DNA from: Flavobacteriales bacterium
Lineage (GTDB): Bacteria; Bacteroidota; Bacteroidia; UBA10329
Direction of reading: 5' to 3'
NCBI GenBank assembly: GCA_044356305.1
Contig: JBIKWM010000002.1
Coordinates: 132,053-196,052 of the forward strand
DNA: 64,000 bases
Both the position numbers and the translations under genes were made by a program. The notes under the pieces are model-generated. The model did no database searches and was not told the DNA's origin. It saw only the letters and a list, made by a program, of their open reading frames with translations. Positions 1,982 through 21,952 of the stretch are shown in pieces. Within the stretch, counting starts at the first letter, position 1. Every line of letters starts with the position of its first letter.

Positions 1982-2052
1982 GATTACAAAGATAGACCAC
2001 CCTATCGGGTGCCCTGATGCGGCATTCTACCTTCGCGACCTTACACTGCCCG

Positions 2053-3468: not shown

Positions 3469-3545
3469 TCACCCAAAAAGACCCTGATCAGAATTACAGC
3501 AGCAGTAAAGGGAATTGGTCCATGCAATAGGCATGGTAGATCGCC

Positions 3546-4094: not shown

Positions 4095-4136
4095 GGCGTA
4101 CATTCGCGCTGCGCTAACGGAAAATGGCGCAGAACG

Positions 4137-6215
4137 ATGAGACGTACCCTACTTTCCTTAGTGCTGATGGCCGCAACATGCACGGCCAGCCTTGCCCAGA
4201 ACAACCACTGGTGCGCCACAGAACAGAACGCCCTGCGCCAGTTGGAGGCCGATCCGGGCCTGATTCAGACCATTGAACAGATGCAGCGGGATCAGGCTGC
4301 TGCTGGACACAATGGCCCCGTGCGCGGGGGTGGTATGCGCATCATCCCCGTGGTGTTCCATGTCATTCATATGGGTGGTGCCGAGAACATTTCCCGTGCT
4401 CAGATCCTGGATCAGGTGCAGACCCTTAACCTCGACTACAGCCGTACCAACCTCGACACGGCCAACACCCGCCCTATCTTCAAACCGGTGGCCGCAGGGG
4501 CCAATGTTGAGTTCCGTCTGGCCACGCTTGACCCCAACGGCAATTGCACCGATGGGGTGGTAAGGGTGATGAGCCCGCTGACCGAGAACGCAACCGATGC
4601 CGTTAAGGCCGTGAGCTATTGGCCTAGCAACAAATACTTCAATGTCTGGGTGGTCAAATCGATTGACAGCGATGGGGGAGGCGGCACCACGCTCGGCTAC
4701 GCACAGTTCCCTGGTTTCGGCAGCGCACAGACCGATGGGGTGGTGATCCGGCACGACTACACCGGCAGCATAGGCACTGCCGCACCCTTTGGTGGCGCGG
4801 GCCGCACGCTCACGCACGAGGCGGGCCACTGGCTGGGCCTTTTCCACACCTTCCAAGGTGGTTGCGCAGGCGGCTTTTTCGGTGAGGCGATAGATGACAC
4901 CCCGCCAGTTCTTGAAGCCAATTCCACATGCAGTTTCAGCACTAACACCTGCACAAACGATAATCCTGATCTGCCCGATCAGATTGAGAATTACATGGAT
5001 TACACTGGTGGAACATGCCAGAACATGTTCACAATCGGTCAGGTCGATGCCATGAACACGGTGCTCAATTCTACCCGCTCCAACATTCATAGTCAGGCCA
5101 ACCTCACTGCCACAGGAACAGCCCAGCTCATTGAGCCGCAGTGCGCTCCCGTGGCGGCCCTCACCGCATCTACATGGCTTGCCTGCACAGGCGATAATGT
5201 GACCTATACCGATGCATCGTACAACGGCACCGTCACCGACTACGACTGGCAATTGCCAGGGGCATCTCCCGCCAGCAGCACTTCGGCCAGCCCTACGGTC
5301 ACGTATAGTTCACCAGGGGTTTACAGTGCCACCCTCACAGCCGGTAATGCCAATGGCAGCGACAGCTACACCGCGCAGAATCTCATCACCATCATCCCTT
5401 CGACTGTTCAGCTCAGCACTTTTCAGGTACAGGAGGGGTTTGAGCAGGTCAACCCTGATATTGTTGTCTACAACCAAGGCAATCTTGGGTCTATGTGGGA
5501 GAGAGATGCAGCGGCCGCGACCGGCTCCTACGGTTATCGCATCGACACGCGCGATGGCAACCCGGCCGGGGTATTGGACGAGTTCGTTCTTCCATCTATG
5601 GATCTTACGCAGATGGGCAATAGCCCGTCCCTCACCTTCAAAGTGGCCTACCGGCAACGCAACAGCAACAACACCATTAGCCAAGAGCGGCTGCGGGTGT
5701 ATGTCAGCGTGAACTGTGGCCAGACATGGGCCGTGCGTTACAATAAGGTGGGTACCAGCCTCTCATCGGTGAGCGGTGCCGTGACCAACGACTGGGCACC
5801 GACCACAGCGGCCGACTGGAAAGAAGAGTCTGTTAGCATGACCAATTTTATAGGCGAGTCCCACGTCCTGGTCAAGTTCCAGAGCACGAGCGATGCCGGC
5901 AACAGCATCTACATTGACGATATCAATATCAGTGGCCCTTTAGGAATTGATGGTGCCCATGCCTATGGCGCAGCTTCCATCAGTCCTTTGCCTGTTGATG
6001 CCACAAGTACACTCACGCTGCAGTGCAAACAAGGTGGGCAGGTCCATTTGAGCGTGATTGATGCCGCTGGCCGTGTGGTAGTTCAGCGCACAGAACAAAC
6101 GGGTGTCGGGGAGCAGCGAATAGCGCTCGGTTCATTGGCCCAGATTCAAAACGGATGGTACTCCCTGCGCATCAGCGGTATAGATGGCGTAAGGGCCTTG
6201 CCTTTTGTGCGGTGA
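4137..6215 (+). CDS. Secreted M43 (pappalysin/ulilysin-like) zinc metalloprotease with PKD domain and T9SS C-terminal sorting domain
   Basis: Signal peptide MRRTLLSLVLMAATCTASLAQ. Metzincin motif HEAGHWLGLFHTF (HExxHxxGxxH). PKD-like segment. C-terminal Por_Secre_tail-like beta strands (LSVIDAAGRVVVQ...GWYSLRISG). Confidence 0.8.
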   Translation: MRRTLLSLVLMAATCTASLAQNNHWCATEQNALRQLEADPGLIQTIEQMQRDQAAAGHNGPVRGGGMRIIPVVFHVIHMGGAENISRAQILDQVQTLNLDYSRTNLDTANTRPIFKPVAAGANVEFRLATLDPNGNCTDGVVRVMSPLTENATDAVKAVSYWPSNKYFNVWVVKSIDSDGGGGTTLGYAQFPGFGSAQTDGVVIRHDYTGSIGTAAPFGGAGRTLTHEAGHWLGLFHTFQGGCAGGFFGEAIDDTPPVLEANSTCSFSTNTCTNDNPDLPDQIENYMDYTGGTCQNMFTIGQVDAMNTVLNSTRSNIHSQANLTATGTAQLIEPQCAPVAALTASTWLACTGDNVTYTDASYNGTVTDYDWQLPGASPASSTSASPTVTYSSPGVYSATLTAGNANGSDSYTAQNLITIIPSTVQLSTFQVQEGFEQVNPDIVVYNQGNLGSMWERDAAAATGSYGYRIDTRDGNPAGVLDEFVLPSMDLTQMGNSPSLTFKVAYRQRNSNNTISQERLRVYVSVNCGQTWAVRYNKVGTSLSSVSGAVTNDWAPTTAADWKEESVSMTNFIGESHVLVKFQSTSDAGNSIYIDDINISGPLGIDGAHAYGAASISPLPVDATSTLTLQCKQGGQVHLSVIDAAGRVVVQRTEQTGVGEQRIALGSLAQIQNGWYSLRISGIDGVRALPFVR

Positions 6216-6590
6216 CACCATTTAGTATTCTATCCTAACGGCACCCAATCATATAGCGCCCTTGAGGCTGAAGAAGTATCACGGTCATTTGAGGCAGACG
6301 TACTCTGCCTTAGAAATATCGTTCCGCAATGCTGGGGAGGGCAATCGACACCACCCAGTAGCGATCATTTTTGGCTCGCAGGGCTAATCAGTGTGGTGGC
6401 CCACCGTTACCTCTCGAAACAGACCACATTCACGTCCTTCATGACTGAGGGCGGTTGAGTCCTTCGCTTGTCAGTTCAATGCAGCCCGCGGTGCATGTCC
6501 GTCTATCGGATGTGCTTGGCCTGGCACAAGTGCCTCGCCTCGAGCCATTCAACGACCGGCAACCATAACCCGTTTGCCCACACCTTACCC

Positions 6591-6878
6591 TTACTCAGGT
6601 TTTATCCCATACTTCTTGAAATAGGCCGCCTTCTTCTCATTCAAGCGGGCCCGTTCTCCCTCATAGTCATTGATGTTGTTCTTATTCGCCTCAATCTTGG
6701 CCTCAAACTCTTTTATCGCTCTCAGTTCGCGCGCAGCCTCATTCTCCTGTTCAACTGACTGGGTGCTGGTGGTTGTGCCCTGCGAAGTGCCCTGCGAAGT
6801 GCCCTGCGATGTACTCTGCGCCACGCAAATGCCACTGAATGCGGCCACCAGTATGAATGTTAGCGTCTGCTTTTTCAT
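6591..6878 (-). CDS. Small secreted protein (95 aa), paralog of 18346..18663 and 18716..18994
   Basis: Signal peptide MKKQTLTFILVAAFSGICVAQ, STSQGT x3 linker, then charged helix AIKEFEAKIEANKNN. Similar architecture to the two other small secreted ORFs. Confidence 0.5.
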   Translation of the reverse strand: MKKQTLTFILVAAFSGICVAQSTSQGTSQGTSQGTTTSTQSVEQENEAARELRAIKEFEAKIEANKNNINDYEGERARLNEKKAAYFKKYGIKPE

Positions 6879-6910
6879 TTTCCGTTTATCTGATTTGATT
6901 TCAAATGTAT

Positions 6911-6938
6911 GGAAAAAGGAAAGGGGCCGAAGCCCCTC
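6911..6938 (-). terminator. Intrinsic terminator downstream of giant adhesin gene
   Basis: Hairpin aggggc-cgaa-gcccct at 6922-6937, followed on the minus strand by ttcctttttcc. Confidence 0.45.
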
Positions 6939-6961
6939 GCCCTTTCCCTTTCACTGCGCTC

Positions 6962-9900
6962 TCAACGCATCACTTGTATCAGGCTCGATGTCCCTCGCCC
7001 ATCATTGTTCAACACCTGCAGCAGGTATGTACCGCTGGCCACATCGAGGCTGATCTCCTGCCTGATGTCGCCCATCTGCGCAATGGTCTGCCTGAACAGC
7101 ACTCGGCCAGTGAGTTCGGTCACAATGAAGGTAAGCTCCTCTTTGGCCTCACCCACTGCCACGGTGAACTGACCGCCCGATGGGTTGGGATACACGCTGA
7201 TGTAGTCGAAGCCCACCTCCTCAATACCAATGTAGGAGAACTCAATGGTATCAGAGCTCGTTTCGCAACCATTCGGATCTGTGTAGATCACCCAGTAGTA
7301 TCCGCTCTCCACCGCGTCATACGACTGGTCATTGGCACCTGGAATCGGGTCACCGTTGTGGAACCACTGGTACCCGGTTGTCACTTGATCCACGGTCAGC
7401 GTGTTACCGTTGGCAGTGATAATGCCTGTGGTCACCGGCAGGTTAGTCACGACAACCGGTGCAGATGTGGCTATACAACCGTTTGCATCAACTGTGGTGA
7501 CCGTATAGTCTCCAGGGGCCGAAGCATGGGTGAATGATGCAGTGGCCTGATTCGGCAGCCACAGGTACTGTGAAGCGGTTGAAGAGGTCAACAATACAGC
7601 ATCTCCTGGGCAGATATCAGTAGGACCTTGTGGAGTAACAACAGGCACCACAGGTGTGACCACATTGAAGTTGACACCAGACAGGGCCAACGATGCGCAT
7701 ATGGCTCCTCCACCCTGCAGCAACTGGGCATTGACCGAAGCCACGGTAGTCACGCCATTCTGTATCGTTGCTGTGCTGAACGTGTTAGGATCATACACGA
7801 ACGTGTGAATTGTGTAAATGCCATTGGAATTCACAGCAAATGAAGGAGTGGTGTTGGTCTGCTGAATTATCCCTCCCTGAACCAAGAGATACAAAGTCTG
7901 GAAGCCTGTGGGGACAATTGAGTTACCCGAAGGTGTGGCGTCAAGTGTCACTGTCTGTCCAGGGGTGAGGCATGCGGGAGCAGCACTCGCGTTCAGTGTG
8001 CCCGCACTCACCGGGCAAGCATTGCTCGACACGGTCACAGTCTGGCAGAACTGGTCAGTTCCGCAGCTGTTCGTGACAGTGAGGCACACATTGTACGTGC
8101 CATCGGCCAGATACGTGTGGGTCGGGCTGGCGCTTGTTGAAGTACCGCTGTCACCGAAATCCCAAGCGTATGTGGTGGCATCTGTGCTAGCATCAGTGAA
8201 TGTCACAGTAAGCAGGTTGGCCGATGCCGTGAATGATGCAACCGGCAGATTGCCGCCTGTTGTAACAGTCGCTGTTCCGCTCACAGTTCCAGGGCAGCCT
8301 GAGGCGTCAGAGACGCTTATGAGTATATAATCACCAGGAACGGTCACATTCTGGCTATACGGACTGGCGGTGATTCCCGTGATTGGGAAAGGTCCGCCTG
8401 GGGTGCTGACCACAACATCCCATGGACCGACACCAGTCAAAGTCCCGGTAATATCCACACCAGCACCTGCGCAGATGGCGCCTCCACCACTGATATCGGC
8501 AGTCGGGCCTGAATTCACGGTCACATCAATCGTGTTCGATGTGGCCGAGCAGCCGTTTGCGTCCACGGTGGTAACGCTGTACGTGCCAGTAGCTGTGGCT
8601 GTGATGGTCTGTGTATTGCCCGATGGTGTCCAAGAATAACTGTTGGCCGTGCTCGATTGAATATCCACACTACCACCTTGACAGAAAGACACGGGGCCAA
8701 GGGCAGTAACGGTCGGAACGATGGCATCAACCACAGTCACAGTGGCACCTACCAGATCTAGCGAACCACAGAAAGTGCCGCCACCTTGGATCAACTGGCC
8801 ATTTACAAGTGCCACAGGCACAGGCAATGGAACGGATGTCGGATCAATGTCGGCAGGGTTGTACACAAGAGTGTGCAGCGTATAGGTGCCCGTTGCAGTT
8901 ACCGTGAATGTCGGTGTGGCCGACACCTGAACAATGTTGGTGCCTTGGCTCAGTGCATAGACTGTGGCAAATCCGCCAGGCACAACAGCATTGCCTCCAG
9001 GGGTGCCGGTCAGCGTAGCTGTTCCATTAACAAGGCAGGCTGTTGCGCTGCTGCTAATGGTTCCCGCAGCCGCAGTACAGCTCGCGCTGGTCACAGTCAC
9101 CGACTGGCATATCTGGTTCGTGCCGCAATTGTTCGTCACAGTAAGACACACGTTATATGTGCCCGCAGTTGTGTAAGTATGGGTCGGATTCTGTTGGGTC
9201 GATGTATTGCTGTCGCCAAAATCCCAGGCCCATGTTGTCGGAGAACCTGTGCTCGCATCGGTAAACACAACTGTCAGGTCTGTCGGGGCCGAGGTGAATG
9301 CAGCTGTAGGTCCATTCCCTGAAGTTACTATGGCTGAACCGCTGACAGTTCCTGGGCAGCTGGTGGCATCAGTAACCGAAACGATGGTGTAAGTGCCTGG
9401 CAACGTCACATTCTGAGTGAATGGGCTAGTGACAATCGGAGGTAGTGGAATATCGTTCAAACCATCATTCAGTACCACCGTCCAAGGGCCTGTTCCTGTA
9501 AATGTGCCTGTGATATCAACACCGACTCCGTTACATACCTGCCCGCCTCCGCTGATGGTGGCAGTCGGAGAAGTAGTAACAGTAACAGTTGCGCTACCTG
9601 AAACTGTACCAGGACATGACGAAGCATCGGCCACTGACACGAGGGAATAGTTCCCTGCTGCGCCAACAGCTTGGGTAAACGGACTACTGGTCACATTAAT
9701 TGTTGAGTTAGTGCTTCCATCGTTCATCACAACTGTCCATGGGCCAGTGCCTGTAGTGGTAATTGTCAGATCAACAGTCTGACCAGAACAGGCGGTACCT
9801 CCACCACTCAAGGTAGCGGTCGGGGCCGGGTTCACAGTGACAACAGTGGCTGTAGAAGTGGCAGAACAGTTGTTGAGGTCATTCACTGTTACAGTGTAAG

Positions 9901-12900
9901 ATCCAGCGGTTGTAATGGTTGCAGACTGAGCAGTTCCACCGCTCGGGCTCCAGTTATAGGTGTTGGCTGTGCTCGAGGTCAGAGTAACGCTGCCGCCTTG
10001 GCAAATTGCAATTGGACCGCCCGCTGTAACAGTAGGCACAGTCGGAGCAATGTCGTTGCTCAGGGTGAATGCCCCCGTGCCGGTCCCGAATCCTGTGACA
10101 TAAACAAAATACTGCGTTCCAGCTGTGGTGGCCGCTGTCACACTGCTCTGAAGGCCGCAGGCATCGTCATTACCGCCCACGCAGACCAAAGAGGTGCAAG
10201 GCCCTTCAAACACACCTATCTTACTATCGTAAGTAGTGCCAGTGCATGTGTTCAAGGTCACTGCGGCTCCTGTACCGAAGAACGAATACCATACCCCTGG
10301 AGCTGTATTGAGGGTCGTGGTACATGTGGCCGGGGCATCACTTGCATCTGCGCCCACTGTGGTCCCGTTCACTGGCGTTCCGCATGTAAGTGGCAATGCT
10401 CCACCGCACAGATCATTTACCGGAGCTGGGGTACAGGTCAACGTCAGTGTGAAGTCACCTGAATTGGTCCCGAATCCGGTCACGTAGATAAGGTACTCCT
10501 GTCCCACTATAGAAGTGAATGCCACACTGCTCTGAAGGCCGCAGGCGTCATCATTTCCAGCCACGCATCCCAAGGTGGCACAAGGACCGGTGAACACCCC
10601 GATCTTGGTGTCCCAAGCAGCACCCCCACAGGTTGATACTGTAACAGCATCGCCTGTTCCGGTGAATGTGTACCACACACCGGGTGACGTGTTCAATGTC
10701 GTGGTACATGTGGCCGGGGCATCTGCCGCATCAGCTCCGGTAGTTGTACCGTTTACCGATTGTCCACATGTAATTGCAATTGCCCCACCGCACAGGTCGT
10801 TGGGGATTGTATTCGATGTCACAGTCACGGGTTGGCAATCTTGGTCGGTACCACAGGTGTTTGTAACCGTGAGGCAAACTGTGTATGTCCCTGCCGCGGC
10901 ATAGGTATGTGCAGGGTTGGCCGTGTTGTCAGTGCCCCCATCACCAAAATCCCACGCATAGGTTGTTGGCCCACCGGTGCTGGCATCAGTGAAGGTGGCG
11001 TCCAAGTTATTGGTCACTGAAGTGAATGAAGCCGTTGGTGCTGTATTGACCGCTACAGTAGCTGTACCGCTTCCCGTGCCTGTACAAGTCGTTGCATCAG
11101 TAACGTTTGGTATTGTGTAAGTCCCAGCAGTGCTCACGGTCTGAGTGAACGGGCTTGTGGTGATGTTCAATGTCGAATTAGAAGTGCCATCATTCAGAGT
11201 AACTGTCCAAGGGCCTGTGCCGGTGAGGGTGATTGTCAGGTCGGTTGTCTGACCCTGACAGATGGTGGCCCCACCAGATAGTGTTGCGGTCGGGGCCGGG
11301 TTAACAGTGACTACAGTTGGAAGCGATGTAGCCTGGCAATTATTGACATCAACCGTTGTAACGGTATAAGAACCAGAAGTGGTCACCGTATTGGTCTGCC
11401 CTGTTCCACCTGTCGGGGCCCATGTGTAAGAAGCAGAAGTATTTGCCGAAAGGGTAACACTTCCACCCTGACAGAAGGTCGTTGGGCCTCCTGCAGTGAT
11501 GGTCGGGCCGATTGGCGTCATGTTATTGCTGAGTGTGAACGCTCCCGTTGCCGTACCGAAGCCGGTCACATACACGAAGTACTGGGTGCCGGCCGTGGTG
11601 TTTGCCGTCACACTGCTCTGTAGGCCCGAACCGCAACCTGTTGCATCATCATTTCCGGCTATACAGGTAAGTGCGGTGCACGGCCCTTGATAGACCCCTA
11701 TCTTACTGTCATATGTTGTGCCGGTGCAGGTGTTGAAGGTGACCGGGGCGCCCGTACCAAAGAAAGAGTACCACACACCACCTGCAGTATTGAGCGTTGT
11801 GGTACAAGGCGAGAGGGCGCCTGTCGTGGTGGAATTCACAGTGGTGCCGTTCACAGCCACTCCGCATGTGAGCGGAATTGCATTGCCACACAGGTCATTG
11901 GCAGGAGGGGGCGGTGCAACGCAGGTATTGCAGGTCACCGTGGTGGTGCGGCATGTGTTCTGGGTTCCGCACGCATTGCTAGTGCTGATATGCAGCCTAA
12001 CTGTTCCTGAGAATGTGGCCGTCCACGTGATTGGGGTGGTGCCAGAGGCAAGTACAGGCGTAGAGCTTGTCCCATCGGTGAGCACCAGCCAATCTGTTGC
12101 AATACTCGAGGTGAAGGTGTAGGTCTGACCGGCCACCACATTGTTTATCACAGCAAACTCACCAGCGAAATTGCAGGTTGAGATAGTGACTGTTGTCGGT
12201 GTGGTCGGTGCGTTGGCGGTACCGAATTGCGGAGTATGAATGCAGTCAACAGTCCCGACAACCGTCACATTCTGACAGATCTGGTTACTGCCGCAGCCAT
12301 TGGTGGCGGTCAGGCATACGTTATAAGTGCCTCCGGCCGCATAGGTGTATGTCGGGTTCTGAAGGGTCGAGGTGCCTCCGTCACCAAAGGTCCATGCCCA
12401 AGAGGTGGGAGTACCTGTGCTCGCATCCGTGAAGCTCGCGTCAAGTGCAGCCGTTGTCGATGTGAATGCCGCAACCGGGGTGCTGCCCGTGGTCACTGTG
12501 GCCGATCCGCTCGATGTGCCTGTGCAGCCGGTGGCATCGCTCACACTCGATACGGTGTACGTGCCGGCAGTGGTGACCGTGGTGGTGAATGGGCTGGTCA
12601 AAATCCCTGTGGTGGGTGTGCCGTTCAGCACAATACTCCACGGGGCCGTGCCTGTAAGGGCAACGCTCACCGTCACCCCCACTCCGTTGCACACCACACC
12701 ACCACCACTCACCGTGGCTGTTGGGGCCGTGTTCACTGTCACAGTGGTCGGGGCCGATGTCGCAGCGCAGTTGTTCAGATCATTCACTGCAACGGTGTAT
12801 GAACCGGCAGTGGTTATAGTAGCCGACTGAGCCGTGCCTCCACTTGGAGACCATGCATAGGTGTTGGCCGTGCTCGAAGTAAGAGTAACACTGCCGCCCT

Positions 12901-15205
12901 GACAGAAAGTGGTAGGCCCACCGGCAGTCACTGTAGGAGTCACCGCGGTCAAATCATTGCTCAAGGTAAATGCTCCCGTTGCAGTACCGAAGCCGGTCAC
13001 ATACACAAAGTACTGGGTGCCGGCAGTTGTAGCCGCATTCACTGTGCTCTGGAGGCCGCAGGCATCATCATTTCCACCTACACAGGTCAATGAGGCACAT
13101 GGGCCCTGAAACACCCCTATCTTGCTATCATAGGTGGTGCCAGTACATGTATTGAGACTAACTGTGGCACCTGTTCCAAAGAAAGAATACCAAACCCCGG
13201 CAGCTGTATTCAATGCGGTGGTGCACGTTGCAGGAGCGTCAGCAGCGGTGGCACCCACCGTGGTGCCGTTCACCGGAGTACCGCAAGTCAGGGGAATGGC
13301 TCCACCGCACAAGTCATTGGTAGGGGGAGATACGCAAGTGATGCTCATGGTGAATGCACCTGTATTTGCTCCGAACCCAGTAACATAAATGAAATAGGTG
13401 GTTCCTACTGCACTTGTGAAAGTCACGGTGCTCTGCAATCCGCATGCATCGTCATTTCCTGCAACACAGGTCAGCGCCCCGCATGCCCCACTGAATACCC
13501 CAAGTTTACTGTCGTAGGCCGTGCCAGTGCATGTGCTGACTGTAACAATGTCACCCGTTCCCACAAAACGGTACCATATACCCCCAGAAGTATTTAAGGT
13601 CGTAGTGCAGGTTGCTGGTGCATCGGCAAGGTCGGAACCAACCGTGGTACCGGTCACCGTCTGACCGCAGGTAACGGTTATCGCACCGCCACAAAGGTCA
13701 TTCACTATACCACCGGACACAGTCACATTCTGGCAGATCTGATTGCTGCCGCAACCGTTGGTCGCAGTAAGGCACACGTTATAGGTGCCACTCGCTGCGT
13801 AGGTGTAGGATGGGTTCTGCAGGGTCGAGGTGCCTCCGTCACCAAAAGTCCATGCCCAAGAGGTAGGGCTTCCTGTACTTGCATCAGTGAAACTCGCAGC
13901 AAGCGCAGCTGTGGTGGAGGTGAATGCCGCGGTAGGCGTGACTCCCGTAGTAACGACAGCTGAGCCACTCGATGTGCCCGTGCAGCCGTTAGCATCAGTC
14001 ACACTCGATACAGTGTAAGTAGCTGCGGCAGTTACGGTAGTGGTGAATGGGCTCGTAGCGATTCCGTTGAATGGCGTGCCATTAAGGACAATGTTCCAAG
14101 GGGCCGTTCCCGTAAGGGCCACTGAAACTGGCACTCCTACTCCGTTACATACCACGCCACCGCCACTAACTGTGGCTGTTGGGGCTGTGAACACAGTGAC
14201 CGCAGTGGCTGCCGAAGTTGCCGCACAACCATTGATGGTGCCGGCAACGGTGTAGCTTCCTGCAGCAGATACGGTAGCCGATTGGGCCGAACCACCGCTC
14301 GGGCTCCATGCATAGGTGCTTTGGAAAGAAGATGTGAGGGTGACGCTACCACCGGGGCAGAATGAAGTAGGACCGCCAGCTGTAACGGTCGGAGTAACCG
14401 CTGCCAGATCATTCGACATTGTGAAGTTGCCTGTATTGCCACCGAAACCGGTCACATAAACAAGGTAATTCGTCCCAAGAGTGGAGGTGAATGTCACGGT
14501 TGATTGAACCCCGCACGCATCATCATTACCTGCCACACATGTCAGTGCCCCGCATGTGCCCGTGAACACCGCAATCTGGCTGTCGTAATCAGTTCCAGTG
14601 CACGTTGACAGGGTTACAGAAGCTCCGGTTCCAACAAAGCTGTACCATACACCTCCGGCCCCGGTCAGCGCAGCCGATGTTCCACAAGCCGCCCCTGGGG
14701 CACCGGTTGTCGTGGCATTGATGGTTGACTCCGACACAGAAACACCGCAGGTCAATGGAATCGCATCAGCACACAGGTCATTGGCAGGGGGAGTGACAGC
14801 TCCGAACAGACAGCCTGCGCAAGCAGGTTCGGCAGCAGCCTCACCGGCACAGATACCGTCCCATTGGGTATTACAACAGAATGGGTCTAGGGCGCAAATG
14901 GCCGTCTCGCAAGCAGGGTCGCTCGGAAATCCAGCTGTGGCCTGGGTCTGGTCGCAGAATGCACTCCCACCTGTGCTCAAGCAGCCAGCACAAGCAGGTT
15001 CCGCGGCCGCACTCGCTGCACAAATTCCATCCCAAAGGGTGTTGCAACAAAACGGGTCTGCAGGACAAATGGCATTCTGACAGTTGATGTCTGATGGAAA
15101 TCCTGCCGTTCCCTGCGCCTGATCACAGAACTGGGCGAATGCACTTTGAAACCCGAATAGGGCGAATGCGATTGTCGCAATTGTCTGAATGGAGAAATTT
15201 CTCAT
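6962..15205 (-). CDS. Giant (2747 aa) T9SS-secreted adhesin-like repeat protein: two N-terminal 8-Cys modules, many PPC-like domains, PKD domains, Ig-like repeats, type-A sorting domain
   Basis: Signal peptide MRNFSIQTIATIAFALFGFQSAFAQ. Two copies of FCDQxQxTAGFPSD..CxxAICxxDPFCCNTxWDGICA..AAEPACAGCL. ~110-aa modules NDLCGGAIPLTCG...GVWYSF.GTG..VT.STC.GT.YDSKIGVF.G.C..L.CV.GNDDACGLQS.V...GFG..TGAFTLS repeated >8 times. WAWTFGDGGTST..NP.YTY PKD motifs. C-terminal VYPNPSGGQFTV...GTYLLQVLN CTD. Confidence 0.85.
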   Translation of the reverse strand: MRNFSIQTIATIAFALFGFQSAFAQFCDQAQGTAGFPSDINCQNAICPADPFCCNTLWDGICAASAAAEPACAGCLSTGGSAFCDQTQATAGFPSDPACETAICALDPFCCNTQWDGICAGEAAAEPACAGCLFGAVTPPANDLCADAIPLTCGVSVSESTINATTTGAPGAACGTSAALTGAGGVWYSFVGTGASVTLSTCTGTDYDSQIAVFTGTCGALTCVAGNDDACGVQSTVTFTSTLGTNYLVYVTGFGGNTGNFTMSNDLAAVTPTVTAGGPTSFCPGGSVTLTSSFQSTYAWSPSGGSAQSATVSAAGSYTVAGTINGCAATSAATAVTVFTAPTATVSGGGVVCNGVGVPVSVALTGTAPWNIVLNGTPFNGIATSPFTTTVTAAATYTVSSVTDANGCTGTSSGSAVVTTGVTPTAAFTSTTAALAASFTDASTGSPTSWAWTFGDGGTSTLQNPSYTYAASGTYNVCLTATNGCGSNQICQNVTVSGGIVNDLCGGAITVTCGQTVTGTTVGSDLADAPATCTTTLNTSGGIWYRFVGTGDIVTVSTCTGTAYDSKLGVFSGACGALTCVAGNDDACGLQSTVTFTSAVGTTYFIYVTGFGANTGAFTMSITCVSPPTNDLCGGAIPLTCGTPVNGTTVGATAADAPATCTTALNTAAGVWYSFFGTGATVSLNTCTGTTYDSKIGVFQGPCASLTCVGGNDDACGLQSTVNAATTAGTQYFVYVTGFGTATGAFTLSNDLTAVTPTVTAGGPTTFCQGGSVTLTSSTANTYAWSPSGGTAQSATITTAGSYTVAVNDLNNCAATSAPTTVTVNTAPTATVSGGGVVCNGVGVTVSVALTGTAPWSIVLNGTPTTGILTSPFTTTVTTAGTYTVSSVSDATGCTGTSSGSATVTTGSTPVAAFTSTTAALDASFTDASTGTPTSWAWTFGDGGTSTLQNPTYTYAAGGTYNVCLTATNGCGSNQICQNVTVVGTVDCIHTPQFGTANAPTTPTTVTISTCNFAGEFAVINNVVAGQTYTFTSSIATDWLVLTDGTSSTPVLASGTTPITWTATFSGTVRLHISTSNACGTQNTCRTTTVTCNTCVAPPPPANDLCGNAIPLTCGVAVNGTTVNSTTTGALSPCTTTLNTAGGVWYSFFGTGAPVTFNTCTGTTYDSKIGVYQGPCTALTCIAGNDDATGCGSGLQSSVTANTTAGTQYFVYVTGFGTATGAFTLSNNMTPIGPTITAGGPTTFCQGGSVTLSANTSASYTWAPTGGTGQTNTVTTSGSYTVTTVDVNNCQATSLPTVVTVNPAPTATLSGGATICQGQTTDLTITLTGTGPWTVTLNDGTSNSTLNITTSPFTQTVSTAGTYTIPNVTDATTCTGTGSGTATVAVNTAPTASFTSVTNNLDATFTDASTGGPTTYAWDFGDGGTDNTANPAHTYAAAGTYTVCLTVTNTCGTDQDCQPVTVTSNTIPNDLCGGAIAITCGQSVNGTTTGADAADAPATCTTTLNTSPGVWYTFTGTGDAVTVSTCGGAAWDTKIGVFTGPCATLGCVAGNDDACGLQSSVAFTSIVGQEYLIYVTGFGTNSGDFTLTLTCTPAPVNDLCGGALPLTCGTPVNGTTVGADASDAPATCTTTLNTAPGVWYSFFGTGAAVTLNTCTGTTYDSKIGVFEGPCTSLVCVGGNDDACGLQSSVTAATTAGTQYFVYVTGFGTGTGAFTLSNDIAPTVPTVTAGGPIAICQGGSVTLTSSTANTYNWSPSGGTAQSATITTAGSYTVTVNDLNNCSATSTATVVTVNPAPTATLSGGGTACSGQTVDLTITTTGTGPWTVVMNDGSTNSTINVTSSPFTQAVGAAGNYSLVSVADASSCPGTVSGSATVTVTTSPTATISGGGQVCNGVGVDITGTFTGTGPWTVVLNDGLNDIPLPPIVTSPFTQNVTLPGTYTIVSVTDATSCPGTVSGSAIVTSGNGPTAAFTSAPTDLTVVFTDASTGSPTTWAWDFGDSNTSTQQNPTHTYTTAGTYNVCLTVTNNCGTNQICQSVTVTSASCTAAAGTISSSATACLVNGTATLTGTPGGNAVVPGGFATVYALSQGTNIVQVSATPTFTVTATGTYTLHTLVYNPADIDPTSVPLPVPVALVNGQLIQGGGTFCGSLDLVGATVTVVDAIVPTVTALGPVSFCQGGSVDIQSSTANSYSWTPSGNTQTITATATGTYSVTTVDANGCSATSNTIDVTVNSGPTADISGGGAICAGAGVDITGTLTGVGPWDVVVSTPGGPFPITGITASPYSQNVTVPGDYILISVSDASGCPGTVSGTATVTTGGNLPVASFTASANLLTVTFTDASTDATTYAWDFGDSGTSTSASPTHTYLADGTYNVCLTVTNSCGTDQFCQTVTVSSNACPVSAGTLNASAAPACLTPGQTVTLDATPSGNSIVPTGFQTLYLLVQGGIIQQTNTTPSFAVNSNGIYTIHTFVYDPNTFSTATIQNGVTTVASVNAQLLQGGGAICASLALSGVNFNVVTPVVPVVTPQGPTDICPGDAVLLTSSTASQYLWLPNQATASFTHASAPGDYTVTTVDANGCIATSAPVVVTNLPVTTGIITANGNTLTVDQVTTGYQWFHNGDPIPGANDQSYDAVESGYYWVIYTDPNGCETSSDTIEFSYIGIEEVGFDYISVYPNPSGGQFTVAVGEAKEELTFIVTELTGRVLFRQTIAQMGDIRQEISLDVASGTYLLQVLNNDGRGTSSLIQVMR

Positions 15206-15236
15206 GTTGTCGAGATGTTGATGGGGCGCTGCCCGG

Positions 15237-15614
15237 TCATTTGAAGTTGAACTGTCGCCTCGCTGCTCGCGATTCCATTATCATGTCTCTGAATCCAATG
15301 GGATCAGCAGCTACTGCTCTTAGGTATTCTGGGCCTTCCTTGTTCACAAACTGAGGAAAGCGGGAATTGACATTCTTGATGGCCTCATCTATCGAGGCAG
15401 CGTTGCTTATATGGTCCGGAGTCTGATAATCAGCTGGTATTGGCGCGCCAAGTACCTCTTTCACATACCCTTTGATGGTCGGGATGTCCGCAAGTGCCAT
15501 GCGGCCAATCAAACCCTGCTCGGCCTGCGTGTAAGGACGCACTTTATTCGGGGCAATCCCAGCCTGTGCCCAGCAGGAAACGGTGAAATGACACAACAAA
15601 AATGTTGCGATCAT
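15237..15614 (-). CDS. Hypothetical secreted protein (~125 aa) immediately upstream of giant adhesin gene
   Basis: ORF 15237..15692. Best start at internal Met giving signal peptide MIATFLLCHFTVSCWAQA. 31-bp gap to the giant gene start. No recognisable domain. Confidence 0.4.
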   Translation of the reverse strand: MIATFLLCHFTVSCWAQAGIAPNKVRPYTQAEQGLIGRMALADIPTIKGYVKEVLGAPIPADYQTPDHISNAASIDEAIKNVNSRFPQFVNKEGPEYLRAVAADPIGFRDMIMESRAARRQFNFK

Positions 15615-15772
15615 AAGCTTGAAACCTTGGCCAAGAGCGTACACGTTTTCCTTCCCCTTTCTTTTTCCAGAAAAGCCGCCAATAATAAGCATTTAATCGA
15701 AATGAAGATGTCGGAACAGGGACCAATTGTCGGTAGCACAAAACAGATCTCCGTGCGGATTAAATTCCCAGA

Positions 15773-15802
15773 CCAAAAAAAAAGGGGGCCAGTGGCCCCC
15801 TT
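15773..15802 (-). terminator. Intrinsic terminator downstream of 826-aa PPC protein gene
   Basis: Perfect hairpin gggggccaGtggccccc at 15784-15800 with A-run 15773-15783 (T-run on minus strand). Confidence 0.55.
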
Positions 15803-15828
15803 TCCTTTCCGATCCAATGAAATCAGCC

Positions 15829-18261
15829 TTAACGGGAGATGGAGATCCGCTTAGATGCAATCAGACCATCGGCCCCAACAATATTCAGTAGGTAGGTGCC
15901 CGCAGCCAGATCTACATTCAGATTCTGGCGGATGTTGGCCCCGCCCTGAAGCTGATGCGCAATGAGTTTGCGACCACTAAGATCTGTAAGCTCTGCCTGA
16001 ACATTGCCCTGTGCACCTTTCACCTCTATCGTCAGCTCTCCAGCCGATGGGTTGGGGTAAACAGAAAGCGAAACAGCTTCAACTGAATTCAGGCCTGTCA
16101 CTATCACAGTTACCGATTGGCAGTCCTGGTCGCTTCCGCACGCGTTGGTGGCTGTGAGGCAAACGGTATAAGTGCCATTGGCGGTATAGGTATGCGATGG
16201 GCTGGTTGAAGTGCTCGACCCCCCATCACCGAAATCCCATGCATAGGAGGTGGCACCGCCAGTGCTCTGATTGGTGAAGTTAACTGTTGGGTCGGCATTC
16301 TGGAAAGTATAGCCAGCGGTCGGACTATTGCCTGTACCTATAGTAACCGAATTGCTGCGCTGACAGCCATTGCTATCTGTGACGGTCAATGTGTGGGTTC
16401 CAGATGACACAGAGATTGACTGTGTGGTCTGACCACCCGGTGACCACAGGTAACTGAATCCTGTTCCGGCAGGACCACCAATGGTCACGGGATTCCCGTT
16501 GCATGAAGTTGGGCTAGAAGGACTGATGGTGGCATCCGCTACGTACTGGTTGTCGGTGAGCTGAACAAAGAGGTCAGCAGCAGCACCTTGGTAGCCATCC
16601 ACTTGAACATAGTAGACCTGTCCAGCGGTGAGGCAGGTCACTGTCACTTCAGACGAGAACTCGGTTGTCACAAAATTCGGGTTGTCGTCATTGGCGCCCT
16701 CAATAACTGCACCACCACTGGTTATGGCGATGCAGCTTGCCGCACTGTAAACCGCTAGCTGTGTGTCATACGAACCATCGGTGCTGATGGTCACATTACC
16801 CGATGCTGGGGCGACAAATGTGAACCATACCGAATTGTCTACAATCAGGTCGCCACCACACCAGCCATCCTGCGACTCGCAGTTGTTTGTGGTGTTAGAG
16901 CCTTGTGGTGGTACAGGCTCGCCCGCCTCAGCCGTGGCCCCTGTGGTGACGAAAGGCCCATTGGCTCCGAAACTGAGCGGGATAGCCGAACAGACATCAT
17001 CATTGGTGGCCACGACAGCGCCATAAACGCATATATCAAAAGTGGTTGTGGCCGGAATTCCAATGTTGTAGTCATAGACACGCACAAAAATCGTAGCTCC
17101 CGGGGTTGCTCCGGTAAGTACTCCGGCCTCTGCTTCCCCAGACAATGTGTTGTCGAGACAACCCAACGAGGTTAACGCCCCACATGTTCCATCAAACACT
17201 TCCAGAACCGCATCGAACGAGGTTGAGCCGAGCACTTCAATGTTGGCAGCACCATTGGCAGGTACTACAAATGAGTACCATACATCGTCATCGGCAGTAC
17301 CTGCGCAGCCCGCCTGACTCTCAGTGGCTGTGGTCACATCGCCTGATACGGGCACACACGATGTGCCTACCGCAAGGCTCGTTGCACCGGCACACTCGTC
17401 ATTGCCTGTGGCACTCGGGTCGTATACGCATATATCGAAAGTTGTGGTCAGGGGTGCTCCAGTGTAGTAGTCGTACACGCGCAGATAGATGGTCTCACCT
17501 GGCACCCCTCCTGTAAAGGCAGCGGACTCCAACTCGCCTTCCAATGTACCGTCTACACATCCTACGGAAACCAGAGTGGCACAGTCGCCAGTGAAGGCTT
17601 CGACAACCGCATCAAAATTGGCAGAGCCTTGAACATCAATGGTCGCATTACCCGAAGGAGGAACAACAAAGCTGTACCACACATCGTCATCGGCCGTTCC
17701 AGAACAACCTGCCTGACTCTCTGTGGCATTGGTGACATCTCCACTGGTTGGGGTGCAATTGACCGTCACAGATAATGAAGTGGCAGTGGCACACTCATCA
17801 TTGGTGGCCATAGGAGTCTCGTATACGCACATCAGAAAATCTGTGGTGGCCGCCACATCAGCGTCAAAGTCATAAACTCTATAGAAGATTGTGGTACCAG
17901 CCACACCGGTCACTAATACTCCCTCAACTTCTCCATCAACTGTCGCATCAATACAACCAATAGATGTCAAGGCCCCACAAGACCCTTCAAAGAATTCGAG
18001 CACAGCGTCAAATGCCGTGTTACCAAGCACTTCCACTGTGGTAGAGCCGCTCGCTGGCATCACAAAACGGAACCAGATATCATCATTCGCTGTGCCTGCA
18101 CAACCCACTTGGGACTGGGTTGCCCCGGCCACATCGTAGGTGCCGGGCACACAGTCAGCGTTTACCGTCATCAAGATTGAACCTGAACAGTTGTCGTTCT
18201 GGGCCGAAGCGCCAAATGCCAAAAGGCTTAAGGAGGCAAGAAGCGTAAATCTATTTTTCAT
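15829..18261 (-). CDS. T9SS-secreted protein with four PPC (pre-peptidase C-terminal)-like domains, PKD domain and type-A sorting domain
   Basis: Start at MKNRFTLLASLSLLAFGASAQ (ATG 18259-18261). Four ~125-aa modules NDxC..A..L....C....GDV..ATESQAGC.GTADDDVWYSFVVP..G...I.V.G...FDAV.E.F.G.C..L.S.GC.D......E.......G...IY.RVYDY......TFDICVY. YAWDFGDGGSST PKD motif. CTD LSVYPNPSAGELTIEV...GTYLLNIV. Confidence 0.8.
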   Translation of the reverse strand: MKNRFTLLASLSLLAFGASAQNDNCSGSILMTVNADCVPGTYDVAGATQSQVGCAGTANDDIWFRFVMPASGSTTVEVLGNTAFDAVLEFFEGSCGALTSIGCIDATVDGEVEGVLVTGVAGTTIFYRVYDFDADVAATTDFLMCVYETPMATNDECATATSLSVTVNCTPTSGDVTNATESQAGCSGTADDDVWYSFVVPPSGNATIDVQGSANFDAVVEAFTGDCATLVSVGCVDGTLEGELESAAFTGGVPGETIYLRVYDYYTGAPLTTTFDICVYDPSATGNDECAGATSLAVGTSCVPVSGDVTTATESQAGCAGTADDDVWYSFVVPANGAANIEVLGSTSFDAVLEVFDGTCGALTSLGCLDNTLSGEAEAGVLTGATPGATIFVRVYDYNIGIPATTTFDICVYGAVVATNDDVCSAIPLSFGANGPFVTTGATAEAGEPVPPQGSNTTNNCESQDGWCGGDLIVDNSVWFTFVAPASGNVTISTDGSYDTQLAVYSAASCIAITSGGAVIEGANDDNPNFVTTEFSSEVTVTCLTAGQVYYVQVDGYQGAAADLFVQLTDNQYVADATISPSSPTSCNGNPVTIGGPAGTGFSYLWSPGGQTTQSISVSSGTHTLTVTDSNGCQRSNSVTIGTGNSPTAGYTFQNADPTVNFTNQSTGGATSYAWDFGDGGSSTSTSPSHTYTANGTYTVCLTATNACGSDQDCQSVTVIVTGLNSVEAVSLSVYPNPSAGELTIEVKGAQGNVQAELTDLSGRKLIAHQLQGGANIRQNLNVDLAAGTYLLNIVGADGLIASKRISISR

Positions 18262-18345
18262 GTATTGGTTTTTAATGGTAGTTGGGATGAAAAAGGGAAA
18301 ACCGCCCATCGGTCAGAGGGGCGGTTGATTTTGTTAAGAAACAGG

Positions 18346-18663: not shown

Positions 18664-18715
18664 CTCGATTTCGTTAAGGTTTGTGTGGTTCTCGGAGTTC
18701 GTTCAAGTAGGTTTA

Positions 18716-18994: not shown

Positions 18995-19038
18995 GAGATT
19001 CGGATTAAGCGCCCAAATGTAGGACGAATTAGAGATGA

Positions 19039-20280: not shown

Positions 20281-20281
20281 A

Positions 20282-21952
20282 TCAACGCAGAAGTGTCAGA
20301 AATCCCTGTCGGCTCTGGGTAGACCCATCCAGACCAGTCAAATTGAGCAGATAGTAGTATGTTCCCTGTTCCGCCTCGGCATTGCCATTTATTCGGCCGT
20401 CCCATCCCCAGTCACTCCCAGCGGTCAAAGTTCCTTCCATCTCATGCACCTTCAGCCCCCACCTGTTGTAGATCTTCATTGCGGCAGCAGTGTAACCATA
20501 GACGAAAGGTTCCCACAACCTGTTCATATCATCACCATTCGGGGTGAACACATTCGGCACTTCCAACATGGGCATGCCCTCAATATGAATGGATTGCATG
20601 GCCGTGTCGGCACATCCGAACTCATTGGTAACGATCAGGGTCACCACATAGGTGCCGCTGTCTGGAAAAACGTACTCGGCATCTTGACCATTAAGTATGG
20701 TGTCTCCCACCATCCACTGGTAGGTCGTGGCCTGGCCCTGGGCCGAAAACGAACCATTTAGGTAGGCGGCATCAATCAAAGCAGTGGCCGTGGGCACCGG
20801 ATTCACCGTGACTGACTGTGTCACGGTGTCTGTGCAGCCATCGGCCGTTATGAGCAATAGCGCTGCATCGTATTCACCAGCTTCGGCAAATAAATGGAAA
20901 TGGTCAATGGTGGAGGCCGTGGACCCATCACCATGATCCCAAGAATAGGTGGTCCCCTGTCCGAGAGCATTGCCCGTGAAGTCAAATGCTGTGGTATCGC
21001 CCGCACAGACCGGCCCGGTATTAAAGGCAGCGGTCGGCAGCGGGTCTATCACCACATCAAAACTGTCGGTGGCCGTGCACCCTGCCATGTCTGTTATGGT
21101 CTGAACTATGGTGTAGGTGCCAGGGGCGGCATAGGTCACATCCCCAGGGTCAATCTGGTCGGAGGTCTGGCCGTTGCCCAGATCCCAGTTCACTGCCGTC
21201 ACAGCTCCCAGAGCGCTATAGGACGCATCTGCAATGTTGATGGCCTCGCCAAGGCACACCTCATCATCGCTCAATGTGGCATCGGGCAGCATGGCCAGGC
21301 AAAACCTGTGCTCGTTGTTCAAACCGCCAGTACTGGCCGTGAATCCCCAATAGACCTCAGGATTGCCCGAAAAAAGGTCATTGACAATATCTGTGTTGAG
21401 TTCAACCCTCAGGTCGCTATCCATGTAGACGGAGAATGTGTTCGTGCCGGGCGCCCAGACCACGCGCATGAGATGTTCAGCCGCATCTTCAATATTGCCT
21501 CCGCTGGCAAGGGCTGTGACAGGCCCCATCAGGTTATTGGCCGTGCCATGGTCCACCACCCCATTGCTCATCAGTGCAATGTGGTCATAGACAGGGTCCC
21601 ATCCGTTCTGATAGGTGTCGACCTCCACGGCCAGAGACGGACTGATGCCCTCATAGCCCAGCCCACCACCTGTGCTGCCGATGCTGGTGCTTATAGGTTG
21701 CAACATGAATGCGATGCCATCGGCCCCGCCATCATTGGCCCCCAGGTACACATTGAATGTGAAATCAAAAGGGTCGGTCAGGTCTATCAGGTTCTCGTTC
21801 CAGACCGAGCCCCCCTGAGTGTTGATGGCCTGGGTGAGTCGGTAACAGTTGCATGAGAGCTGCACGGCATTCCCGTTCACAACGTATTGGGCCGTGCCTA
21901 TCAACGGAAGGGAAGAGAGGAGGACAAGCAGGAGTCTTTGCATATCATTCAC
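20282..21952 (-). CDS. T9SS type-B cargo: L-type (legume-like) lectin domain + PKD domains + gliding-motility-associated C-terminal domain
   Basis: Signal peptide. N-terminal lectin-like beta-sandwich (GGADGIAFMLQP..., VYWGFTASTGGLNNEHRFC). C-terminal VPNVFTPNGDDMNRLWEPF...GTYYYLL type-B CTD. Confidence 0.7.
   Translation of the reverse strand: MNDMQRLLLVLLSSLPLIGTAQYVVNGNAVQLSCNCYRLTQAINTQGGSVWNENLIDLTDPFDFTFNVYLGANDGGADGIAFMLQPISTSIGSTGGGLGYEGISPSLAVEVDTYQNGWDPVYDHIALMSNGVVDHGTANNLMGPVTALASGGNIEDAAEHLMRVVWAPGTNTFSVYMDSDLRVELNTDIVNDLFSGNPEVYWGFTASTGGLNNEHRFCLAMLPDATLSDDEVCLGEAINIADASYSALGAVTAVNWDLGNGQTSDQIDPGDVTYAAPGTYTIVQTITDMAGCTATDSFDVVIDPLPTAAFNTGPVCAGDTTAFDFTGNALGQGTTYSWDHGDGSTASTIDHFHLFAEAGEYDAALLLITADGCTDTVTQSVTVNPVPTATALIDAAYLNGSFSAQGQATTYQWMVGDTILNGQDAEYVFPDSGTYVVTLIVTNEFGCADTAMQSIHIEGMPMLEVPNVFTPNGDDMNRLWEPFVYGYTAAAMKIYNRWGLKVHEMEGTLTAGSDWGWDGRINGNAEAEQGTYYYLLNLTGLDGSTQSRQGFLTLLR

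What the first reader, a model, noticed from the sequence alone, without database searches (positions are those of the whole stretch)
6962..15205. Giant adhesin built from near-identical DNA repeats, with a novel N-terminal tandem 8-Cys module
Between ~7900 and 14800 the gene consists of repeated ~110-aa PPC-like modules, PKD domains and Ig-like domains. Their nucleotide identity is high enough that spurious plus-strand ORFs recur with near-identical translations (for example ...WFVPQLFVTVRHTLYVP... at 7908 and 8964). Such repeats are prone to recombination, which would allow expansion or contraction of the protein length. The N-terminus (nt 14800-15130) holds two consecutive ~52-aa modules, each with 8 cysteines (FCDQ.Q.TAGFPSD..C..AIC..DPFCCNT.WDGICA...AAEPACAGCL). 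The spacing does not match any named motif I can place from the sequence alone.
Basis: seen in the sequence. Interest (0 to 1): 0.5.

Follow-up and report, generated by a model that had tools for sequence, protein, structure and literature searches.

The report
Giant secreted surface protein, cysteine-knot tip
This is one 2747-residue surface protein of a Bacteroidota bacterium, exported by the type IX secretion system; its repeats are old and diverged rather than near-identical, and its two N-terminal cysteine-rich modules belong to a large, widespread domain family that nobody has characterised.

Summary
The ORF is real: 6962..15205 on the minus strand, 2747 aa, with a signal peptide, 29 modules and a T9SS type A sorting domain.

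The claim of near-identical DNA repeats fails. Copies are 45-81% identical in nucleotides. The longest exact direct repeat is 26 nt. At positions where two copies keep the same amino acid, 44-73% of the codons still differ. Short-read contigs from one metagenome match the window at 100% and together cover the whole gene. Recombination-driven length variation is therefore not supported.

The tandem 8-Cys module is real (aa 25-77 and 82-134) but not unique. A profile finds it in 3919 representative proteins, with up to 32 copies per protein. These come from Planctomycetota, Myxococcota and Flavobacteriales.

The only curated family that touches it is Pfam DUF8252 (PF26780), and only faintly. There is no literature and no match to any solved structure, by sequence or by fold. 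The AlphaFold model is confident (pLDDT 94) and shows four short helices.

The window's eight Cys are the conserved core; an accessory fifth disulfide is missing. This 8-Cys variant was seen in eight proteins. All eight are T9SS cargo that carry it directly after the signal peptide.

Overall: an ordinary giant T9SS protein carrying a widespread, uncharacterised domain.

The parts
6962..15205 (-). Complete ORF, 2747 aa. ATG start; the stop codon is 6962-6964. Composition: 112 Cys, 20% Thr, 133 Asp+Glu against 15 Lys+Arg.
15134..15205 (-). Sec-type signal peptide, aa 1-24 (MRNFSIQTIATIAFALFGFQSAFA|Q).
   Evidence: read from the translation; no signal-peptide predictor was available
14975..15133 (-). 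Cys module 1 (aa 25-77): QFCDQAQGTAGFPSDINCQNAICPADPFCCNTLWDGICAASAAAEPACAGCLS. It has 8 Cys and belongs to the DUF8252-like family.
   Evidence: domain E 6e-22; AF2 pLDDT 94.3
14804..14962 (-). Cys module 2 (aa 82-134). It is 75% aa and 66% nt identical to module 1.
   Evidence: (domain E 3e-23)
14405..14791 (-). PPC-fold module B1 (aa 139-267).
13712..14404 (-). Ig-like (aa 268-340), POM152-type Ig-like (341-424) and PKD1 (425-498).
12950..13711 (-). PPC-fold modules B2 (aa 499-624) and B3 (aa 627-752). B3 is the copy that was modelled.
12254..12949 (-). Ig-like, POM152-type Ig-like and PKD2 (aa 753-984).
11909..12253 (-). Single-copy module 'F' (aa 985-1099), 6 Cys, no family match.
10811..11908 (-). 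B4, Ig-like, POM152-type Ig-like and PKD3 (aa 1100-1465).
9086..10810 (-). B5, B6, Ig-like, two POM152-type Ig-like domains and PKD4 (aa 1466-2040).
7436..9085 (-). Module G1, Ig-like, POM152-type Ig-like, PKD5, module G2 and Ig-like (aa 2041-2590). G1 and G2 are 49% identical and match no family.
7202..7435 (-). Module 'H' (aa 2591-2668), unassigned.
6965..7201 (-). T9SS type A C-terminal sorting domain (aa 2669-2747).
   Evidence: TIGR04183 29.3 bits, cut-off 23; PF18962 26.4 bits, cut-off 27
6921..6938 (-). Terminator-like GC-rich hairpin followed by a T-run, 24 nt after the stop codon.

Best explanation
The gene encodes a type IX secretion system (T9SS) cargo protein of a Bacteroidota bacterium, probably Flavobacteriales-like.

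Inferred route, from established T9SS biology:
- The Sec signal peptide takes the protein to the periplasm.
- Its 112 cysteines are oxidised there, giving disulfide-stapled modules.
- The type A C-terminal domain directs it through the T9SS translocon.
- That domain is then removed, and the protein is released or attached to the cell surface by its C-terminus.

This would leave a long, very acidic, Thr-rich chain of Ig-like and PKD spacer domains. Interspersed among them are six modules with the collagenase collagen-binding/PPC fold, the likeliest ligand-binding parts. The two Cys modules sit at the distal N-terminal tip.

Each Cys module is predicted to be a compact bundle of four short helices. 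This is the minimal core of a large family seen in Planctomycetota, Myxococcota and Flavobacteriales.

As I read the model, the invariant Asp residues precede predicted helices, so they look like helix caps. By inference, the invariant Trp and Phe pack in the core. The conservation therefore looks structural. I take the module to be a rigid, protease-resistant cap or presentation unit whose variable loops may bind a ligand.

The internal repeats arose by old duplications. They are now too diverged to recombine readily.

Shown here: ORF, domain content, divergence of the repeats, family size, predicted folds, and conserved placement of the module. Inferred: export route, surface anchoring, adhesion, and the role of the Cys module.
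For: - T9SS type A domain above the NCBIfam cut-off. Neighbouring genes are also T9SS cargo.
- Signal peptide visible in the translation.
- Five PKD domains and POM152-type Ig-like domains.
- Cys module: both copies match the family profile at E about 1e-22. There are 3919 representative proteins at E<=1e-3 and 415 at E<=1e-30. The AF2 model has pLDDT 94.3 and four short helices.
- Core Cys positions are conserved in 1028 modules. C12 co-varies with an accessory Cys: 941 of 987 modules with C12 have one, against 4 of 41 without. The window's 8 Cys are therefore the core set.
- All eight proteins seen with the 8-Cys variant have a signal peptide, the module at the N-terminus, and a Por_Secre_tail match. 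Five of those matches are above the Pfam cut-off and three, including the window's, fall below it.
- Repeat divergence.
- Short-read contigs match the window at 100% and together span the whole gene.
Against: - No experiment or characterised homologue supports adhesion or any ligand.
- The full-length protein has no close orthologue among 5.8 billion proteins. The best hits are about 30% identical over a third of the query.
- Pfam Por_Secre_tail scores 26.4 bits, just under its cut-off of 27.
- T9SS machinery genes were not looked for in the window.
- The structural-cap reading rests on a predicted model and on conservation patterns only. Arrays of up to 32 copies in other phyla would equally fit a multivalent binding role.
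Confidence: 0.7

Rival explanations
1. One reading: a contingency-type adhesin. Near-identical DNA repeats recombine or slip, so the protein lengthens and shortens between strains.
For: The protein is highly modular, with a higher-order repeat of about 480 aa. blastn self-hits lie at offsets of 1431-1470 and about 2900 nt.
Against: - Nucleotide identity between copies is 45-81%, and the longest exact repeat is 26 nt.
- No tandem array is detected in the gene.
- Between 44% and 73% of codons for identical residues differ, so the duplications are old.
- Two short-read contigs from SRR11638223 match the window at 100% and together cover the whole gene. That would be unlikely with near-identical repeats.
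- No strain series exists to compare.
Confidence: 0.05
2. The Cys modules are the functional binding head. They would be a new class of small disulfide-rich ligand-binding module, for example for a glycan, a metal ion or a partner protein. They would work together with the PPC-fold modules with which they repeatedly co-occur.
For: - They sit at the distal N-terminus in all eight proteins with the 8-Cys variant.
- They co-occur with the PPC-fold module in 21 of 155 top family members and in 24 of 109 ORFs at genomic loci.
- In several proteins the PPC-fold match is split in two (P0014, P0047, P0087, P0155). Read by eye, P0010 carries a Cys module inside that module.
- Arrays of up to 32 copies suggest multivalency.
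Against: - The invariant non-Cys residues look structural (my reading of the model and the conservation). No conserved surface site is evident.
- Fold searches with a 57-residue, loop-rich model have low power.
- No catalytic or binding partner is known.
Confidence: 0.2
3. The protein is a released extracellular polymer-binding or degradation accessory protein rather than a cell-anchored adhesin. The PPC-fold modules would target an insoluble substrate for neighbouring secreted enzymes.
For: - The PPC and collagen-binding domains that the model resembles are substrate-targeting modules of secreted proteases; this is established knowledge of clostridial collagenases.
- Neighbouring genes encode an M43 peptidase with a PKD domain and a lectin-PKD T9SS protein.
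Against: - The protein has no catalytic domain.
- Its size and its Ig/PKD stalk are typical of surface fibrils.
- Type A T9SS sorting domains are compatible with either fate.
Confidence: 0.1

Closest known systems
Giant T9SS-secreted Ig/PKD-repeat surface proteins of Flavobacteriia. Examples are the Fluviicola FG-GAP/Ig_7 proteins and 'PKD domain-containing protein' P0110 from a Flavobacteriales MAG. SprB-type gliding adhesins serve as the functional archetype.
   Same: - Signal peptide, thousands of residues of Ig-like and PKD modules, and a C-terminal T9SS sorting domain.
- P0110 also starts with two 8-Cys modules directly after its signal peptide.
   Different: - Only about 30-40% identity over parts of the query, so there is no orthologue.
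- It has a type A sorting domain, not the CHU_C type B domain of SprB.
- It has no SprB repeats and no FG-GAP domains.
- It carries six PPC-fold modules.
Pfam DUF8252 (PF26780)
   Same: It is the only curated family recorded on proteins that consist of little else but this Cys module (P0156-P0161). It is also recorded on P0110, which carries the 8-Cys variant.
   Different: - The recorded hits are only 'faint', for P0110 and also for the canonical P0157.
- The model is missing from the local Pfam copy, so the window's modules could not be scored against it.
- It is a domain of unknown function, and no paper mentions it.
Collagen-binding domains of clostridial collagenases ColG/ColH, and the pre-peptidase C-terminal (PPC) domain
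   Same: - A weak profile hit to the PDB entry 2luw_A, deposited as 'Metalloprotease' (E 0.02).
   Different: - Only 14-16% sequence identity.
- No Pfam PPC hit.
- The B modules carry 7-8 Cys each and an NDD.CG.QS motif.
- No evidence for calcium or collagen binding.
Pfam GBD_T9SS_assoc (PF23759), as found in the neighbouring gene 15829..18309
   Same: Profile-profile homology with that protein's modules: probability 98.8%, E 7e-17. These lie in the region where Pfam matches GBD_T9SS_assoc.
   Different: The window's B modules do not themselves reach the Pfam model. They form a separate, Cys-rich branch.
Surface proteins with truly identical tandem repeats, such as streptococcal alpha C/Rib and staphylococcal Bap; this comparison rests on my own knowledge
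   Same: Modular repeat architecture of a surface protein.
   Different: Those repeats are more than 95% identical in DNA and vary in number between strains. Here the copies are 45-81% identical.

Membership tests
T9SS type A cargo | C-terminal sorting domain matching TIGR04183 / PF18962 | tested here: met
   TIGR04183 scores 29.3 bits against a cut-off of 23. PF18962 scores 26.4 bits against a cut-off of 27, which is borderline.
T9SS type A cargo | N-terminal Sec signal peptide | tested here: met
   MRNFSIQTIATIAFALFGFQSAFA|Q, read. This was by inspection only; no predictor was run.
T9SS type A cargo | The host genome encodes the T9SS machinery | not tested
   Only other cargo genes were seen in the window. 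Machinery genes were not searched for, and only 64 kb is available.
Pfam DUF8252 (PF26780) | Score above the family's gathering threshold | not testable with these tools
   The model is absent from the local Pfam copy. Relatives carry only 'faint' precomputed hits.
Cys-module family as defined here (profiles A1 and A2) | Core Cys at profile positions 3, 17, 22, 28, 29, 37, 45 and 48, plus the D-P-F-C-C and W-D motifs | tested here: met
   Both copies match, with domain E 6e-22 and 3e-23. The Cys pattern is shown.
Cys-module family as defined here (profiles A1 and A2) | Accessory disulfide (C12 paired with C4, C18 or C20), present in about 95% of modules | tested here: not met
   The window has Phe at position 12 and no accessory Cys. 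This defines the 8-Cys subfamily.
PPC / collagenase collagen-binding domain superfamily | Sequence match to Pfam PPC (PF04151) | tested here: not met
   No hit at E<=10 for a B module.
PPC / collagenase collagen-binding domain superfamily | Beta-sandwich fold superimposable on solved PPC and collagen-binding domains | tested here: met
   [not shown]
PPC / collagenase collagen-binding domain superfamily | Ca2+-dependent collagen binding | not testable with these tools
   This needs biochemistry.
Pfam GBD_T9SS_assoc (PF23759) | Match to the family model | tested here: inconclusive
   There is no direct Pfam hit. hhalign gives 98.8% probability to the neighbouring protein's modules, which lie in its PF23759-matching region.
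PKD domain | Match to PF18911 / PF00801 above cut-off | tested here: met
   Five stretches; 265 and 139 bits.
Recombining or phase-variable repeat adhesins | Near-identical (over about 95%) DNA repeats long enough for homologous recombination | tested here: not met
   The maximum is 81% over 222 nt. The longest exact repeat is 26 nt. There is no tandem array in the gene.
Recombining or phase-variable repeat adhesins | Repeat number varies between strains | not testable with these tools
   No orthologue from another strain exists in the collections. The only other copies are 100% identical contigs from SRR11638223; JGI sample 3300059473 also holds this locus, but its DNA could not be read.

The most novel reading that the evidence does not exclude
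The Cys module would be a previously undescribed small fold: four short helices held by four disulfides, with no detectable analogue among solved structures. It would act as a ligand-binding head, used across Planctomycetota, Myxococcota and Bacteroidota. It repeatedly works with, and is sometimes nested inside, a Cys-rich PPC-fold module. The Flavobacteriales 8-Cys variant would then be a dedicated tip domain of T9SS surface fibrils.
Probability: 0.2. Interest if true: 0.55.

Novelty: new member of a known kind. Interest (0 to 1): 0.3.

Why it matters
The protein as a whole is an ordinary example of the very large, modular T9SS surface proteins common in Flavobacteriia. Correcting the "near-identical repeats" claim removes the suggestion of a rapidly varying contingency locus.

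The useful residue is the Cys module:
- It is abundant: about 3900 clusters at 50% identity, with up to 32 copies per protein.
- It is modelled with high confidence.
- It has no function, no solved structure and no literature.
- It shows a clear association with a Cys-rich PPC-fold module.
- In Flavobacteriales it takes a fixed place at the outer tip of secreted proteins.

That makes it a well-defined target for structural and binding studies. It is not a surprise to specialists.

Tried and rejected
- **Curated libraries and PDB sequences.** Pfam-A, NCBIfam and PDB sequence searches gave nothing usable for the Cys module, alone or in tandem, or as a 62-sequence profile. The weak EGF_Pikachurin (E 0.1) and aldolase (E 1.4) matches were rejected as chance.
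- **Word-indexed homology search.** It returned only 5 and then 8 hits for this short query. The exhaustive profile search was needed to see the family.
- **Genome scan.** It was redone with the 8-Cys alignment A4.
- **Exact look-up of the giant protein.** It is not on record. Neighbouring genes led to the Logan contigs instead.
- **Literature.** Searches for PF26780, DUF8252 and the DPFCC motif found nothing relevant.
- **Myxococcus cysteine-rich repeat.** I considered this from memory as a possible identity. NCBIfam, which should hold that model, gave no hit.
- **Local blastp of the protein against itself.** It returned only the identity hit. Modules were delimited by motif anchors and HMMs instead.
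- **Disulfide connectivity.** It could not be read, because model coordinates are not exposed. Presence/absence co-variation of Cys was used instead.

Full report
**1. What is there**

The minus strand carries one uninterrupted ORF at 6962..15205, 2747 aa, starting at ATG. It begins with a typical signal peptide, MRNFSIQTIATIAFALFGFQSAFA|Q. It ends with a T9SS type A sorting domain: TIGR04183 scores 29.3 bits against a cut-off of 23, and Pfam Por_Secre_tail scores 26.4 against 27.

Pfam finds five PKD domains and POM152-type Ig-like domains. Using motif anchors and HMMs built from the copies, I divided the protein into these modules:
- signal peptide
- Cys1-Cys2
- B1-Ig-Ig-PKD1
- B2-B3-Ig-Ig-PKD2
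- F
- B4-Ig-Ig-PKD3
- B5-B6-Ig-Ig-Ig-PKD4
- G1-Ig-Ig-PKD5
- G2-Ig
- H
- C-terminal sorting domain

The protein has 112 Cys, spread over every module except the sorting domain. It is 20% Thr and has 133 Asp+Glu against 15 Lys+Arg. A terminator-like hairpin follows the stop codon.

Several neighbouring genes also encode secreted modular proteins. Gene 15829..18309 has GBD_T9SS_assoc, PKD and Por_Secre_tail. Gene 20282..21952 has a lectin domain, PKD and CHU_C. Gene 4137..6215 has an M43 peptidase domain and PKD; no sorting domain was listed for it.

**2. The repeats are not near-identical**

- blastn of the gene against itself yields nine pairs at 71-81% identity, and the longest exact direct repeat is 26 nt.
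- Tandem Repeats Finder reports no array inside the gene. The repeat finder reports families at 60-80% identity.
- Module by module, nucleotide identity is 45-81%. The best pair is PKD1/PKD2, at 81% nt and 92% aa. Among positions where two copies share the same amino acid, 44-73% of the codons differ.
- The duplications are therefore old, and the similarity is held at the protein level.
It is the reverse reading of the conserved core of two PKD domains.
- Two short-read contigs from SRR11638223 are 100% identical to window 1-12827 and 12806-28309. Together they cover the whole gene. Near-identical repeats would be expected to break such an assembly at many more places.
- No orthologue from another strain exists in the collections, so variation in copy number cannot be tested directly. 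The substrate for homologous recombination is nevertheless poor.

**3. The Cys module**

The two modules (aa 25-77 and 82-134) are 75% identical in protein and 66% in DNA. They have no hit in the local Pfam-A, in NCBIfam or among PDB sequences.

A word-indexed search found five relatives. A seven-module profile searched exhaustively found many more:
- 3919 representative proteins at E<=1e-3
- 1721 at E<=1e-10
- 415 at E<=1e-30
- up to 32 matched stretches in one protein

In 1028 full-length modules from the top hits, Cys is nearly invariant at profile positions 3, 12, 17, 22, 28, 29, 37 and 45. The D-P-F-C-C and W-D motifs and Ala41 are also conserved. A further Cys follows C45 within 8 residues in 940 of 1003 modules.

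C12 co-varies with an accessory Cys at position 4, 18 or 20. An accessory Cys is present in 941 of 987 modules that have C12, and in only 4 of 41 that lack it. I infer that these form an accessory fifth disulfide.

The window's modules have Phe at position 12 and no accessory Cys. Their eight Cys are therefore the conserved core set.

The exact 8-Cys pattern occurs in 38 modules, counting the window's two. The other 36 lie in seven other proteins. All seven begin with a signal peptide followed closely by the first module. All seven also match Por_Secre_tail, two of them below the Pfam cut-off.

A scan of one genome per species found at least 434 confirmed loci. The best matches are Cryomorphaceae and Flavobacteriales MAGs, at 57-67% identity. 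Nannocystaceae, Paraliomyxa, Phycisphaerae and other Planctomycetota, Saprospiraceae and Polyangiaceae follow.

**4. Is the module known?**

Proteins that are little more than this module (P0156-P0161, 87-97 aa) carry a precomputed hit to PF26780. So does P0110, a Flavobacteriales protein with the 8-Cys variant. PF26780 is named DUF8252.

The hits are flagged 'faint' in P0110 and also in the canonical P0157. The model is absent from the local Pfam copy, so the window's modules could not be scored against it. No paper in the library mentions PF26780, DUF8252 or the motif.

The module is therefore catalogued at most as a domain of unknown function.

**5. Predicted structures**

hhalign links the B modules to the neighbouring gene's modules, with probability 98.8% and E 7e-17. 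Those modules lie in the region Pfam names GBD_T9SS_assoc. "PPC-like" is therefore right at the level of fold.

**6. Association of the two modules**

- 21 of the 155 top Cys-module proteins also carry the B module.
- So do 24 of 109 Cys-module ORFs at the genomic loci.
- In several proteins the B-module match is split in two (P0014, P0047, P0087, P0155).
- Read by eye, P0010 carries a Cys module inside its B-like module.

**7. Interpretation**

The best-supported reading is a T9SS-exported, probably surface-attached fibrillar protein. The Ig-like and PKD domains would act as spacers. The PPC-fold modules are the likeliest ligand binders. The two Cys modules form the distal N-terminal tip.

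The export route, the anchoring and adhesion are inferred from established T9SS biology. The role of the Cys module, as a rigid cap or as a binding head, is open. I favour a structural or presentation role, at moderate confidence.

**8. Verdict**

The ORF and its modular build are confirmed. The "near-identical repeats" claim and its recombination consequence are not. The Cys module is real and uncharacterised. It is also a member of a large family that Pfam already touches with a DUF, so it is not new as a kind.

Noticed in passing
window 15829-18309 (-): The upstream neighbour is another T9SS cargo protein (826 aa). It has three GBD_T9SS_assoc modules and a fourth PPC-like one, all homologous to the giant protein's B modules (hhalign 98.8%), then PKD and Por_Secre_tail. 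The two genes look like diverged relatives that share a module repertoire.
   Followed up: partly
window 6591-6878 (-), including the 12-nt tandem repeat at 6775-6820: A small 95-aa ORF just downstream of the giant gene. It has a signal peptide, an (SQGT)x3 repeat encoded by the only tandem repeat that TRF found, and a charged helical tail. It has no Pfam hit and is also called as a gene in the Logan and JGI contigs.
   Followed up: partly
window 15237-15692 (-): A 151-aa ORF with no family match. It ends 31 nt upstream of the giant gene's start codon, between the two T9SS cargo genes, and may be co-transcribed with them.
   Followed up: no
window 11909-12253, 8729-9085, 7664-8023 and 7202-7435 (-): Four stretches of the giant protein match no Pfam or NCBIfam family. 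They are module F (aa 985-1099, 6 Cys), modules G1 and G2 (about 119 aa each, 49% identical) and module H (aa 2591-2668).
   Followed up: partly
window 12806-12827; loci L081 and L082: In the Logan assembly of SRR11638223 the gene is split into two contigs that overlap by 22 nt at this point. The 31-mer that ends at the contig break occurs only once in the window. The cause of the break (coverage, strain variation or graph branching) is unknown.
   Followed up: partly
P0010 (JGI, 948 aa); also P0014, P0047, P0087, P0155: In these proteins, probably from Planctomycetota or Myxococcota, a Cys module appears to be inserted inside the PPC-fold module, between the YDGC and CNDD segments. This would be a nested-domain arrangement. 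It was read directly in P0010 and inferred from split HMM matches in the others.
   Followed up: partly
P0003 (JGI, 186 aa): An N-terminal PqqD-like domain (PF05402, E 8e-8) is followed by a hydrophobic segment and a single C-terminal Cys module. This is an unusual context for the module.
   Followed up: no
P0001 (JGI, 187 aa): Two canonical Cys modules are followed by an IPTL-CTERM sorting signal. The module therefore also occurs in proteins that carry a different C-terminal sorting signal.
   Followed up: no
window 20282-21952 (-) and 4137-6215 (+): Further secreted modular proteins lie nearby. One combines a legume-lectin domain, three PKD stretches and a CHU_C (type B T9SS) domain. The other is an M43 metallopeptidase with a PKD domain.
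   Followed up: no
L083 18613-18927: A gene with a Piwi domain (678 aa, prokaryotic Argonaute-like) lies about 6 kb from the P0110 gene in the Flavobacteriales MAG GCA_022402535.1.
   Followed up: no
window 40462-40535 (-): A tRNA-Cys (GCA) gene is the only RNA gene found in the window by Rfam and ARAGORN.
   Followed up: no
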